Source: a virus (Duplodnaviria; Heunggongvirae; Uroviricota; Caudoviricetes). From it: DNA of 49,802 nucleotides. The number at the start of each line of letters is the position of its first letter. The stretch's first letter is position 1. The stretch lies in IMG/VR virus record IMGVR_UViG_2541047795_000003, positions 1 through 49,802 of that record; one strand, 5' to 3'. Made by a program: the position numbers. Positions 18,001 to 21,000 of the stretch are shown in pieces.

Positions 18001-21000
18001 GGTCTGGCAGACTATCAGTTCGGTTGTTACAGACGCCTTCCGCAGTGAAGGCTTTTTTATTTGTGGTAAATGGGCGGCTGGTGGGTGTTAGGGGCACCCA
18101 CCAGCCATCTGCTCATGCGTTGGGTTCACAAGCAAACCTCAGGCCCACTGCTTTGCGCAAAAGCAGAATGAGCCTATCAGAGACAGGCTTAATGATCCAT
18201 GCTTAATACTGTAAAAATATCCAGTTGTGAGTTAATCAACGCCGACTGCCTGGAATTTATCCGGTCGTTACCCGAAAATTCTGTTGACCTGATAGTCACG
18301 GACCCGCCGTACTTTAAAGTGAAGCCTGAGGGCTGGGATAACCAGTGGAAGGGCGACGATGATTACCTGAAGTGGCTGGACCAGTGTCTGGCGCAGTTCT
18401 GGCGGGTGCTGAAACCTGTCGGAAGTCTTTACCTGTTCTGTGGTCATCGCCTGGCATCTGATATCGAAATCATGATGCGTGAACGCTTCTGTGTGCTGAA
18501 CCATATTATCTGGGCGAAGCCGTCCGGACGCTGGAACGGATGCAACAAGGAAAGCCTGCGGGCGTATTTCCCCGCCACAGAGCGCATTCTGTTCGCGGAA
18601 CATTATCAGGGGCCGTATCGTCCGAAAGATGCCGGGTATGCGGCGAAGGGCAGTGCACTGAAACAGCATGTGATGGCCCCGCTGATTTCTTACTTTCGTG
18701 ATGCGCGCGCGGCCCTGGGGATAACGGCAAAACAGATTGCAGATGCCACAGGAAAGAAAAACATGGTGTCGCACTGGTTCAGTGCCAGTCAGTGGCAGCT
18801 ACCGAACGAAAGCGATTATCTGAAATTACAGTCGCTGTTTGCCCGGGTGGCAGAAGAGAAACATCAGCGCGGTGAACTGGAAAAGCCCCACCACCAGCTG
18901 GTGGATACGTATACGTCACTGAACCGGCAGTATGTGGAGCTGCAGAGTGAATATAAGCATCTGCGGCGGTATTTTGGTGTGACGGCGCAGGTGCCGTACA
19001 CGGATGTGTGGACACATAAACCGGTGCAGTTCTATCCCGGGAAACATCCGTGCGAAAAACCGGCAGAAATGCTGCAGCAGATAATCAGCGCAAGCAGTCG
19101 TCCGGGTGACCTGGTTGCAGATTTTTTTATGGGCTCAGGTTCAACGGTAAAAGCTGCACTGGCGCTCGGGCGTCGTGCGATTGGCGTTGAACAGGAGACC
19201 GGACGTTTTGAGCAGACAGTCAGGGAAGTTCAGGATTTAATCGTTTGAAACGGATGAGATTGCAGAATTAATTACGCACCATTATTATTCTGCTTCCGGC
19301 CCTTTAGCTCAGTGGTGAGAGCGAGCGACTCATAATCGCCAGGTCGCTGGTTCAAATCCAGCAAGGGCCACCATCACATACCGCCATTAGCTCATCGGGA
19401 TAGAGCGCCAGCCTTCGAAGCTGGCTGCGCGGGGTTCAAGTCCCCGATGGCGGTCCATTATCTGCATCATGCGTTGTTAGCTCAGCCGGACAGAGCAATT
19501 GCCTTCTAAGCAGCTGTGGTTGCACTCCTGTTGTTTCTGGTGGTGATGGTGGACTTCAGCAGCCGGATAATGTCGGTGCTGTCTGATGGTGTTTTGGTGG
19601 CGGGTGTGTGGTTGTTGCTTTCCCGTTGCTGAAAAAGAAAGCATCAGGCGATTAGCAGGGTATCAGTTACCCGTTGAAATTTTTAAATACCTCACAATTC
19701 CACAGCTTGATGATTGTCTGGCTGCCGGAGAATTTGTTAAAAATTACATCGCATGGTGAATCCCCCTCAGCGGCGGGGCATCTGGCAAAGTGTATGATCC
19801 AGAGAACATGCAAATTCAGTAGACAGGCTGAATTTACCGGGAGGCCCCTGGCACCATGCGACAGACAGAAATTAGGCTATACTTCAGCCCCTCTCCGGAG
19901 GGGCTTTTCTGTGCAGGATGTGTCACAGTTTCCTGAATTCTGAGTACTGTCCTGTTACTCAGGGTGCTATATTTTCTGACGTGATGAAAGTCTGCCGGAA
20001 GGCGGAACGTATCGGAAATGACCCAGTAGAGAAAACGTTGACTCAGATACCGATGCTGAGTTACCGGGAAACCGGCATCACATGACCGCTATCCTTCCAG
20101 GCTCGCTCCGGCGGGCCTTTTTACTGCAGAAAACAGTTTTCCCGTAAAATGCCACGTTGCTCATAATTCAGGCTGGCGATTATTGTCTGGCCGGCGGGAA
20201 GTTTGTTAAAAAATTTCGCATGGTGAATCCCCCTGTGCGGAGGGGTAATCAGCGAGTAGGTATATGGGATAATCGCGGATTCAGGTGCTGGTACTGAATT
20301 CACCGGGAGGCACCCGGCACCATGCAATGGCACATAGCGCCACTCTCCAGCCCCTCTCCGGAGGGGCTGTTTATATTGATTTTGTCAGATGTGAGTAAAC
20401 TGCTTATGGACTTTGTTGTTTTAGCCCATAAGGACATATTTGCAGAGTGCAACGGTTATTAAAGCATTCATTCAATACGTTATCTGTATTTGTAGGGCAT
20501 TCCTGGCTGTTTTTGATTAAATTCCATAATGTTTTATTGAATGGTACTACGTTGTAAATGGTTACAGGTAGCACTTTGTTATTGAGCATGATGCCTGTGT
20601 GAGTCAGTGTAAATATACTTTCAGGAGGTAAGAAAGCATCCGATTGATACCAGATTATTAATTTTATTTTACTCCATATGACTGAAAAAGATATTCCGCA
20701 TGATGGCTGGATAACTGTATCAATCACAATCCACTTCATTTAGTTTCCTTGTTTATGCCTTGCTGGTGATGTTCTGAAAAGTATAAATGATATTTTTGAT
20801 TGTAAACCATAGAGCAGAATTATTTTTCTGATGTTGTTTATTGTTTATTTAAATGCAGGGTGGTTTATATCTCGTCTTGTAGTTTATCCATGCATATCTG
20901 CTTGATGATGAGGTTTTTATTTAAGGTATGGTTTTGTGTTTTTTCTGTATTACATGTCAGGTATTTTAAAGAATCATTTTTCAGATGGTGGAAAGAACCA

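What the first reader, a model, noticed from the sequence alone, without database searches (positions are those of the whole stretch)
19520..20990. Stx-phage-type late region with an empty stx slot
The order Q - PR'/tR' - DNA adenine methyltransferase - tRNA-Ile2 - tRNA-Arg - truncated tRNA - [about 1.45 kb] - NanS-p - S21-type holin - SAR endolysin - Rz/Rz1 is the order I recall for Stx-converting phages, where stxAB sits between the tRNAs and nanS-p. Here that slot has no convincing long ORF. It holds hairpin/terminator modules (19560-20380) and a 600-bp AT-rich segment (20400-20980) with only weak ORFs, including a 111-aa minus-strand ORF at 20404..20739 with an AAGGA RBS. This is either an stx-negative ancestor/derivative of the same phage lineage or a slot carrying non-protein cargo.
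Basis: partly seen in the sequence, partly recalled or inferred. Interest (0 to 1): 0.6.

Follow-up and report, generated by a model that had tools for sequence, protein, structure and literature searches.

The report
Prophage stx slot holds iraL and sRNAs
The gap where Shiga-toxin phages carry their toxin genes is not empty in this toxin-free E. coli prophage: it holds three tandem copies of a known phage small-RNA gene (STnc100) and iraL, a gene already shown to protect the stress sigma factor RpoS, so the finding is ordinary.

Summary
It runs Q, tR', DNA methylase, tRNA-Ile2, tRNA-Arg, a 42-nt stump of argO, then about 1.45 kb, NanS-p, S21 holin, endolysin and Rz/Rz1. An Stx2a phage, Stx2_EH1910, has the same backbone at 93.5% identity, with stx2AB placed right after argO.

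The interval is not empty, however. Positions 19721-20378 hold three tandem STnc100-type sRNA units (Rfam RF02076). Two score 138 and 132.5 bits against a threshold of 47. The third is degenerate at 30 bits. Each unit ends in an intrinsic terminator.

The 111-aa minus-strand ORF (20404-20739) is iraL. It is 110/111 identical to the characterised CFT073 IraL, an RssB anti-adaptor that stabilises RpoS. [quoted passage not shown]

Positions 19513-19632 are a DUF3927 (tciB-like) remnant fused to the broken argO. No stx remnant exists in the window.

The arrangement is common: at least 80% of the interval is matched in 1005 of 5426 complete E. coli genomes, and RefSeq already annotates the gene as IraM. 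sRNA pairs in this moron site were described in 2014.

Verdict: a correct observation, an "empty slot" reading that fails, and components that are all known. Interest is low.

The parts
16803..17624 (+). Late antiterminator Q (QuuQ type)
   Evidence: PF03589 Antiterm, E 7.8e-51. RefSeq calls it 'antitermination protein'. The window segment 16701-19512 containing it is 93.5% identical to Stx2a phage Stx2_EH1910.
17707..17730 (+). tR'-like intrinsic terminator just downstream of Q. The late promoter PR' is inferred to lie at about 17629-17660.
   Evidence: GC hairpin CCCGCCGCCTGGCGGG followed by a T-run. The promoter assignment rests on reading the sequence and is inferred only.
18199..19248 (+). 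N6/N4 DNA methyltransferase
   Evidence: PF01555, E 6.2e-44. RefSeq calls it 'DNA-methyltransferase'.
19298..19373 (+). tRNA with anticodon CAT (ileZ-type tRNA-Ile2)
   Evidence: ARAGORN. Rfam tRNA at 72.5 bits. RefSeq names it tRNA-Ile.
19381..19457 (+). tRNA-Arg (TCG), argN-type
   Evidence: ARAGORN. Rfam tRNA at 58.4 bits.
19471..19512 (+). Stump of the third tRNA: the 5' 42 nt of argO, tRNA-Arg(TCT), broken after the anticodon loop
   Evidence: Alignment with intact argO of Stx2_EH1910, CFT073 and phi296. Blast homology to the Stx2a phage ends at 19512. ARAGORN does not call it.
19513..19632 (+). Remnant of a DUF3927 (tciB-like) small gene fused to the argO stump. RefSeq calls a 28-aa ORF at 19546-19632.
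   Evidence: PF13064 DUF3927, E 1.2e-10, matching only profile positions 18-40 of 53. It is 80% identical to the DUF3927 gene that follows tciA in PPyecE_EH1910.
19721..19914 (+). STnc100-family sRNA gene, unit 1, with its own terminator at 19886-19908
   Evidence: Rfam RF02076 at 138 bits (gathering 47), E 2.1e-30, full model 1-206. Folds at -64.1 kcal/mol, z -3.45. Terminator.
19950..20125 (+). Degenerate STnc100-like unit that keeps the ACCGGGA...CCGGC hairpin and a terminator (20099-20122)
   Evidence: Rfam RF02076 at 30 bits, E 3e-4, below the gathering score. Alignment, terminator. The same degenerate middle unit occurs in UTI89.
20190..20378 (+). STnc100-family sRNA gene, unit 2, convergent with iraL, terminator at 20348-20373
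   Evidence: Rfam RF02076 at 132.5 bits, E 5.3e-29. Folds at -69.8 kcal/mol, z -3.16. The segment 20161-21219 is 97% identical to the CFT073 region next to iraL.
20404..20739 (-). iraL, an RssB anti-adaptor of the IraM/IraL family, 111 aa
   Evidence: 110/111 aa identical to CFT073 IraL. NCBIfam NF007393 at 162.4 bits against a cut-off of 121. PDB 8twd IraM, E 2.5e-32. 60.4% identical to K-12 IraM. phrog_4407, E 1e-72.
20740..20810 (-). iraL 5' UTR and sigma-70 promoter. The transcription start corresponds to 20772. The -10 element TATACT is at 20780-20785, and a TTTACA -35-like element is at 20801-20806.
   Evidence: The 5' RACE sequence from CFT073, ACATCACCAGCAAGGCATAAACAAGGAAACCA (PMC4045071), matches the window minus strand from 20772 with one mismatch. 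The promoter region is nearly identical to CFT073.
21000..22856 (+). nanS-p (SASA-family sialate O-acetylesterase), the first late gene after the slot
   Evidence: PF08410, PF03629 and PF20350. RefSeq calls it 'SASA family carbohydrate esterase' and starts it at the position equal to 21000.

Best explanation
The interval is the moron (extra-cargo) site of a lambdoid prophage late operon. It lies between the phage tRNA genes and nanS-p, and in this prophage it carries regulatory cargo instead of Shiga toxin.

The cargo is:
- three tandem STnc100-type small-RNA units on the late strand, in the order full, degenerate, full, each closed by its own intrinsic terminator;
- iraL on the opposite strand, convergent with the last STnc100 unit, with its own sigma-70 promoter.

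In the lysogen, RNA polymerase starting at PR' stops at tR' just after Q, so the late genes stay silent. The STnc100 units are inferred to be transcribed from their own conserved promoter-like elements (TTGTCT, 18 nt, TGtTAAAAA). That would give Hfq-binding RNAs of about 160 nt with a conserved four-helix scaffold and a variable segment that may hold the target-pairing seed.

iraL is transcribed independently of the phage late programme. By identity with the tested CFT073 protein, IraL binds the adaptor RssB, blocks delivery of RpoS to ClpXP and raises RpoS levels in growing cells.

On induction, Q-modified polymerase is inferred to read through all five plus-strand terminators to reach nanS-p and the lysis genes. 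It would cross iraL in antisense as it does so.

The broken argO fused to a DUF3927 fragment shows that the left part of the cargo arrived by recombination with another prophage carrying a tciA/tciB-STnc100 module.
For: Shown here:
- STnc100 matches at 138 and 132.5 bits plus a 30-bit third unit, with stable folds.
- The consensus structure is kept across six homologues, and 4 of 37 pairs change on both sides.
- A terminator closes each unit.
- IraL is 110/111 identical to the CFT073 protein, and the sequence at the mapped mRNA 5' end is conserved.
- IraM family model scored above its cut-off, and the ORF matches the IraM crystal-structure chain.
- Of the 13 RssB-contact residues named for IraM, all 5 of cluster I are kept, 3 of 4 in cluster II and 2 of 4 in cluster III.
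- The same backbone carries different cargo at this site. Stx2_EH1910 has argO, stx2AB, STnc100, an iraM-like gene and nanS-p. PPyecE has a toxin-antitoxin pair, tciA, DUF3927, STnc100, AgvB on the minus strand and nanS-p. phi296 has argO, STnc100 and nanS. CFT073 has argO, DUF3927, STnc100 and iraL. UTI89 has argO and the same triple STnc100 array without iraL.

From the literature:
- IraL stabilises RpoS in log phase and binds the RssB N-terminal domain (PMC4045071).
- Convergent Hfq-binding sRNA pairs occupy the moron site after PR' in eight Sakai prophages (PMC4104026, PMC7873438).
- STnc100 lies 75 nt after stx2B and overlaps the Hfq-bound sRNA EcOnc27/sRNA103 (PMC12370729, PMC12711010).
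- STnc100 and PasD form one family (bioRxiv 10.64898/2026.05.13.724894).
Against: - No expression data exist for this window. The STnc100 promoters are my reading of conserved sequence, and the consensus promoter scan found no plus-strand site at its threshold.
- The targets of STnc100-type RNAs are essentially unknown. Published roles (fimZ/espA, stxB pairing) are over-expression results or in silico predictions.
- The middle unit is below the Rfam threshold and may be inert.
- The hairpin after iraL lacks a U-tract on the minus strand, so how the iraL mRNA terminates is unclear.
- Read-through by Q and antisense interference with iraL are inferred from lambdoid phage biology and were not shown for this element.
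Confidence: 0.85

Rival explanations
1. The slot is the scar of a recent stx loss. An Stx2-converting ancestor lost stx2AB by recombination, and the present content is only filler left by that event.
For: The backbone from Q to mid-argO is 93.5% identical to an Stx2a phage, and the break lies inside argO, immediately upstream of where stx2A would start. The terminator of the degenerate unit (20097-20122) resembles the terminator just 3' of argO in the Stx2 phage: a 26-nt match with E 0.005.
Against: No stx2A or stx2B remnant exists at DNA or protein level. The sequence that replaces it is a recognisable module, DUF3927 plus STnc100 units, found intact in stx-free prophages such as CFT073, UTI89 and PPyecE. 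UTI89 has an intact argO followed directly by the same triple array, so the array does not need an stx deletion to arise. The direction of exchange cannot be read from a single junction.
Confidence: 0.15
2. The STnc100 units are not trans-acting sRNA genes. They act in cis as stacked terminator/insulator cassettes that keep tRNA and moron transcription out of the lysis genes in lysogens, or as conserved homology blocks where prophages recombine to swap cargo.
For: Five plus-strand terminators lie between Q and nanS-p, well above the shuffle expectation. An STnc100 unit always sits at the boundary between variable cargo and nanS-p in six different prophages. The tandem array with diverged copies is what recombination between such blocks could produce: unit 1 is 73% identical to unit 2, while unit 2 is 97% identical to the CFT073 unit. 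No strong consensus promoter was found on the plus strand.
Against: A terminator needs only the last hairpin, yet about 120 nt of upstream structure is conserved with compensatory changes. Members of the family were recovered as discrete Hfq-bound RNAs, namely EcOnc27/sRNA103 and PasD (PMC4104026, PMC7873438, bioRxiv 10.64898/2026.05.13.724894). The two roles are not exclusive.
Confidence: 0.2
3. The 111-aa ORF is a decayed or silent copy, and the AT-rich segment is non-functional horizontally acquired DNA.
For: GC content is low at 0.30-0.36. Pfam has no model that matches the ORF.
Against: The reading frame is intact and 110/111 identical to the functional CFT073 protein. The promoter and 5' UTR are conserved. 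The NCBIfam score is above its cut-off over the full length. The sequence is 100% conserved in many unrelated complete genomes.
Confidence: 0.03

Closest known systems
iraL of uropathogenic E. coli CFT073 (prophage at potB; Hryckowian et al. 2014, PMC4045071)
   Same: The protein is 110/111 identical. It has the same minus-strand orientation and the same neighbours: Q, tRNA-Ile, tRNA-Arg, argO, DUF3927, STnc100, iraL, nanS-p, S21 holin, YdfR and lysozyme. The promoter and the mapped 5' end are conserved.
   Different: CFT073 has an intact argO, about 500 bp of extra AT-rich DNA, a full 43-aa DUF3927 gene, a single STnc100 unit, a truncated nanS-p and an IS200 where the methylase sits here. One residue differs (L71 here, F in CFT073).
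IraM of E. coli K-12 (RssB anti-adaptor induced by Mg2+ starvation; structure 8TWD)
   Same: Same family, at 60.4% identity. Most of the named RssB contacts are kept, including all of cluster I, which faces the RssB receiver domain.
   Different: It sits in a different locus next to the e14 remnant, and similarity stops at the ends of the coding sequence. No STnc100 lies nearby. IraL is reported to act in log phase and to bind only the RssB N-terminal domain (PMC4045071). H63 and I64 of cluster III are N and V here.
STnc100 / EcOnc27 (sRNA103) / PasD family of prophage Hfq-binding sRNAs (Rfam RF02076)
   Same: Two units match the full covariance model far above threshold. They sit on the late strand between the tRNA/cargo region and nanS-p, as in Stx2 phages where the RNA lies 75 nt after stx2B (PMC12370729, PMC12711010).
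   Different: Here there are three tandem units, one of them degenerate, rather than one. The segment between the first hairpin and the long stem-loop differs from the Stx2-phage copy, so any targets may differ.
Stx2-converting phage late region (e.g. Stx2_EH1910 LC567834; also Sp5/933W type)
   Same: Same order and a near-identical backbone: Q, small ORF, methylase, ileZ-argN-argO, cargo, STnc100, a minus-strand moron, nanS-p and the lysis genes.
   Different: The window has no stx2AB and argO is cut in half. The minus-strand moron is iraL rather than the 70%-identical Stx2-phage paralogue, or AsxR as reported for Sp5 (PMC4104026).
Convergent sRNA dyads at the PR' moron site (EcOnc27/AsxR, EcOnc06/AgvB; Tree et al. 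2014)
   Same: A plus-strand STnc100-type RNA faces a minus-strand, lysogen-expressed regulator, tail to tail, just upstream of nanS-p. PPyecE_EH1910 shows STnc100 directly abutting AgvB at the equivalent site.
   Different: The minus-strand partner here is a protein-coding regulator of RpoS proteolysis, not an anti-sRNA.

Membership tests
IraM/IraL RssB anti-adaptor family | Full-length match to the curated family model above its cut-off | tested here: met
   NCBIfam NF007393 at 162.4 bits against a cut-off of 121, residues 1-110 on profile 1-113/114.
IraM/IraL RssB anti-adaptor family | Near identity to the experimentally characterised IraL | tested here: met
   110/111 residues identical to CFT073 C_RS06710. 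The published 5' end of the mRNA is found at 20772.
IraM/IraL RssB anti-adaptor family | Conservation of the IraM residues that contact RssB in the crystal structure | tested here: met
   Cluster I 5/5, cluster II 3/4 (T13S), cluster III 2/4 (H63N, I64V), which is 10 of 13 in all. The changes in cluster III would fit the reported loss of RssB C-terminal-domain binding by IraL, but that link was not tested.
IraM/IraL RssB anti-adaptor family | Binds RssB and stabilises RpoS | not testable with these tools
   Shown for the CFT073 protein (PMC4045071) and inferred here from 99.1% identity.
STnc100 sRNA (Rfam RF02076) | Covariance-model score at or above the gathering threshold over the full model | tested here: met
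   138 and 132.5 bits against 47, model 1-206/206. The middle unit scores 30 bits and does not meet the threshold.
STnc100 sRNA (Rfam RF02076) | Conserved secondary structure ending in an intrinsic terminator | tested here: met
   Folds with z -3.45 and -3.16. The consensus has 37 pairs, 4 with changes on both sides. Terminators.
STnc100 sRNA (Rfam RF02076) | Expressed as a discrete Hfq-bound RNA | not testable with these tools
   Reported for homologues EcOnc27/sRNA103 and PasD (PMC4104026, PMC7873438, bioRxiv 10.64898/2026.05.13.724894). No data exist for this locus.
Stx-converting lambdoid phage | Carries stxA and stxB in the late operon | tested here: not met
   tblastn and blastn with stx2A/B from LC567834 against the whole window give only chance-level hits (best E 0.066).
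Stx-converting lambdoid phage | Late-region synteny Q, tRNAs, cargo, nanS-p, S, R, Rz | tested here: met
   Identity to Stx2_EH1910 over Q to mid-argO is 93.5%.
tRNA-Arg argO | Complete cloverleaf | tested here: not met
   Only the 5' 42 nt remain. Neither ARAGORN nor Rfam calls it.
DUF3927 (TciB-like) protein | Full-length match to PF13064 | tested here: not met
   Only profile positions 18-40 of 53 are matched, so the N-terminus is missing. It is a fragment.

The most novel reading that the evidence does not exclude
The site bounded by argO and nanS-p may work as a cargo-exchange cassette. In this reading the STnc100 units have two roles. They are lysogen-expressed sRNAs, and they are also the conserved homology blocks through which prophages swap what lies upstream: stx2AB, tciAB or toxin-antitoxin genes. 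The triple array would then be a footprint of such exchanges.

Within the cassette, the protein regulator iraL has taken the place of the anti-sRNA partner (AsxR or AgvB). Q-driven late read-through would cross iraL in antisense and shut it off at induction. That would tie RpoS stabilisation strictly to the lysogenic state.
Probability: 0.2. Interest if true: 0.4.

Novelty: already known. Interest (0 to 1): 0.15.

Why it matters
It matters little as a discovery. iraL, STnc100 and the moron site downstream of PR' are all published, and the locus is annotated in RefSeq and Rfam.

The useful points are corrective.
- An stx-negative 'slot' in this phage lineage should not be read as empty. It carries host-directed regulators: an RpoS stabiliser and Hfq-binding sRNAs that probably contribute to lysogen fitness.
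- The iraM/iraL-type gene is not an alternative to stx. A third, mostly unannotated clade of the family lies right beside stx2 in 41 Stx2 phage records, most of them labelled Stx2c- or Stx2-converting. That could be worth testing for an effect on RpoS in STEC.

Tried and rejected
- I looked for stx remnants with tblastn and blastn, using stx2A, stx2B and their flanks from LC567834 against the whole window. Only chance hits appeared. The single 26-nt hit (E 0.005) is a shared type of terminator hairpin, not toxin sequence.
- I scanned the other ORFs in the slot against Pfam: 19674-19943, 19918-20085, 20121-20333(-) and 20860-21063. None matched, and the first three overlap the STnc100 units, so I treat them as non-coding.
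- I ran a permissive Rfam scan of 19400-21100 on both strands for AgvB, AsxR or other sRNAs convergent with the STnc100 units. Nothing appeared beyond STnc100 and tRNA.
- I checked whether K-12 iraM descends from the same slot. Similarity is confined to the coding sequence and no STnc100 lies nearby, so the test was uninformative.
- I considered whether the short PR'-tR' RNA here is an StxS homologue. That would have made a second RpoS-directed element. StxS in Sakai comes from a 258-nt transcript processed by RNase E (PMC7547250), whereas the inferred RNA here is about 70 nt. I made no direct sequence comparison and make no claim.
- The consensus promoter scan gave no plus-strand promoter for the STnc100 units. 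The promoter I propose rests only on conservation across homologues.
- I did not run the large protein-database searches or a structure prediction, because identity to a characterised protein made them unnecessary.
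Full report
**1. What is at the coordinates**

- Q is at 16803-17624 (PF03589).
- An N6/N4 DNA methylase is at 18199-19248 (PF01555).
- NanS-p has DUF1737, SASA and DUF6645 domains. It could start at 20985, but RefSeq starts it at the position equal to 21000, and it ends at 22856.
- A P21-type holin is at 23007-23222, followed by a YdfR/DUF1327 gene.
- A lysozyme is at 23915-24448 and Rz is at 25091-25585, with an embedded Rz1-like lipoprotein ORF at 25311-25496.
- ARAGORN finds two tRNAs: CAT at 19298-19373, which RefSeq names tRNA-Ile, and Arg-TCG at 19381-19457.
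- Alignment with the intact argO of three other prophages shows that 19471-19512 is the first 42 nt of a third tRNA. It is identical through the anticodon loop and then diverges abruptly.
- GC content falls to 0.30-0.36 over 20400-21000.
- Terminator-like hairpins are enriched. There are 16 in 17500-23100 against 5.4 +/- 2.2 in shuffles. On the plus strand they lie at 17707, 18035, 19886, 20099, 20348 and 22939.

**2. The "hairpin/terminator modules" are STnc100 sRNA genes**

Rfam places two full-length matches to RF02076 (STnc100) at 19721-19914 and 20190-20378. They score 138 bits (E 2e-30) and 132.5 bits (E 5e-29) against a gathering score of 47. A permissive scan adds a degenerate third unit between them at 19950-20125, scoring 30 bits with E 3e-4.

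Each unit ends in a GC-rich hairpin plus a T-run. Successive terminators are spaced 213 and 250 nt apart.

Both full units fold well below shuffled controls, with z -3.45 and -3.16. With four homologues from other prophages the consensus is a multi-helix scaffold closed by GCAUGGUG/CACCAUGC, followed by a terminator. Of its 37 pairs, 4 change on both sides and stay paired. The segment between the first hairpin and the long stem-loop is the variable part.

The upstream motif TTG(T/C)CT, about 18 nt, TGtTAAAAA is kept in the homologues even where further upstream sequence differs. I read this as a promoter that would start the RNA near GCAUGG. That is an inference, and the consensus promoter scan did not report it.

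**3. The "weak" minus-strand ORF is iraL**

The ORF at 20404-20739 has these matches:
- NCBIfam NF007393 "anti-adapter protein IraM" over its full length, at 162.4 bits against a cut-off of 121;
- the IraM chain of PDB 8TWD, E 2.5e-32;
- phrog_4407, E 1e-72.

I fetched the CFT073 prophage at potB. There the same gene (C_RS06710) lies in the same place and orientation, and the two proteins are 110/111 identical.

Hryckowian et al. (PMC4045071) named this CFT073 gene iraL. [quoted passage not shown] By 5' RACE they mapped its mRNA 5' end as ACATCACCAGCAAGGCATAAACAAGGAAACCA. That sequence is on the window's minus strand starting at 20772 with one mismatch. A TATACT -10 element lies at 20780-20785.

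Identity to K-12 IraM is 60.4%. Ten of the 13 IraM residues that contact RssB in the crystal structure are kept, including all five that face the receiver domain.

The other ORFs in the slot have no family match. The three that lie upstream of iraL overlap the RNA units.

**4. The left edge**

Positions 19513-19632 match DUF3927 (PF13064), but only profile positions 18-40 of 53. The stretch is 80% identical to the DUF3927 gene that follows tciA in prophage PPyecE_EH1910. The argO stump is therefore joined to the middle of a tciB-like gene. This is a recombination junction, not an stx deletion scar.

**5. Comparison with Stx phages and other prophages**

| Element | Content of the site, in order |
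|---|---|
| Stx2a phage Stx2_EH1910 (LC567834) | Q, small ORF, methylase, three tRNAs, stx2A, stx2B, 75 nt, STnc100, iraM-like gene (-), nanS-p |
| CFT073 | intact argO, about 500 bp, DUF3927, one STnc100, iraL |
| UTI89 | intact argO, then the same full/degenerate/full STnc100 triple; no iraL annotated |
| PPyecE_EH1910 | toxin-antitoxin-like genes, tciA, DUF3927, STnc100, AgvB (-) |
| phi296 | argO, STnc100, nanS |

- Window 16701-19512 aligns to Stx2_EH1910 at 93.5%, and homology resumes inside STnc100 unit 2.
- The iraM-like protein of Stx2_EH1910 is 70% identical to IraL.
The true stx position is between argO and the STnc100 unit.
- The AT-rich iraM/iraL-type segment is a separate, second cargo position that can coexist with stx.
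- The site holds different cargo on closely related backbones.
- No stx sequence is detectable in the window.

**6. How common it is, and whether it is known**

At least 80% of 19460-21000 is matched in 1005 of 5426 complete E. coli genomes, many at 100% identity. RefSeq annotates "anti-adapter protein IraM", "DUF3927 family protein" and "SASA family carbohydrate esterase" there. The left block 19513-20195 is matched over at least 80% of its length in 426 genomes. Four sequenced non-Stx phages (the vB_EcoS-640R1 group) carry the whole interval at 98.9% identity.

The literature already covers the pieces:
- Tree et al. 2014 described convergent Hfq-binding sRNA pairs in the moron site after PR' in eight Sakai prophages, including EcOnc27/AsxR after stx2B (PMC4104026, PMC7873438).
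- STnc100 was placed 75 nt after stx2B and overlaps EcOnc27 (PMC12370729, PMC12711010).
- A 2026 preprint links STnc100 with PasD and with the Q and esterase neighbourhood (10.64898/2026.05.13.724894).

**7. Mechanism**

The steps shown here are the identities, positions and structures of the parts, and the conservation of the sequence at the mapped iraL mRNA 5' end.

The steps taken from experiments on near-identical or homologous elements are:
- IraL binds RssB and stabilises RpoS;
- STnc100-type RNAs are discrete Hfq-bound transcripts.

The inferred steps are:
- independent promoters for the STnc100 units;
- Q-dependent read-through of the five terminators to reach nanS-p and the lysis genes;
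- antisense interference with iraL during late transcription;
- a role for STnc100 blocks as recombination anchors.

**8. Verdict**

The interpretation "empty stx slot with only weak ORFs" is not. The interval is a common, annotated cargo site that carries a characterised protein gene and a curated sRNA family. It is an stx-free relative of Stx2 phage late regions, and whether it ever carried stx cannot be decided from this sequence. Novelty: already known. Interest: low.

Noticed in passing
Phage records, e.g. LC567834 59059-59382 (L004 4880-5203, minus strand); also phages 2851, 1717 and the Stx2a_WGPS series: 41 Stx2 phage records, most of them labelled Stx2c- or Stx2-converting, encode a third clade of the IraM/IraL family. 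The copy in LC567834 is 70% identical to IraL and 65% to K-12 IraM, and across the records tblastn identity to IraL is about 72-74%. In LC567834 the gene lies on the minus strand right after stx2B and STnc100. Most records leave it unannotated. I found no study of its function in the searched literature.
   Followed up: partly
L008 (UTI89 NC_007946.1) 3042-3719: UTI89 has the same Q-methylase-tRNA backbone with an intact argO. This is followed directly by the same full/degenerate/full STnc100 triple (136, 30 and 161 bits), and no iraL is annotated. The triple array is therefore a recurrent module, not a one-off duplication in this window.
   Followed up: partly
window 5008-5487 (minus strand): A cluster of Rfam sRNAs lies here: C4 antisense RNA (5008-5095), isrK (5120-5196) and DicF (5436-5487). 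This is typical of the dicB/immunity side of Qin-like prophages.
   Followed up: no
window 14598-14769: A full-length sok antitoxin RNA match (106.7 bits) indicates a hok/sok type I toxin-antitoxin module upstream of the DUF968-RusA-Q block.
   Followed up: no
window 22857-23006: The intergenic region between nanS-p and the holin has a strong 12-bp-stem terminator at 22939-22967. A 2026 preprint places the PasA/PasC sRNAs at this esterase-holin position. Rfam has no match here and I did not test it.
   Followed up: no
window 24449-25090: About 640 bp separate the endolysin from Rz. The stretch contains small hydrophobic ORFs (24526-24738, 24719-24991, 24741-24872) that match PHROGs of unknown function (phrog_6632, phrog_3246, phrog_4906). 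This looks like an extra insert within the lysis cassette.
   Followed up: partly
window 20097-20122 and L004 3262-3287: The terminator of the degenerate STnc100 unit resembles the terminator just 3' of argO, upstream of stx2A, in the Stx2a phage (23 of 26 nt, E 0.005). This suggests these hairpins are related, and it is not evidence of an stx remnant.
   Followed up: partly
window 17851-18048: A small 65-aa ORF lies between tR' and the methylase, followed by its own terminator at 18035-18052. It matches phrog_331 (unknown function, E 1.4e-37) and is conserved in Stx2_EH1910, UTI89 and NCCP15648.
   Followed up: no
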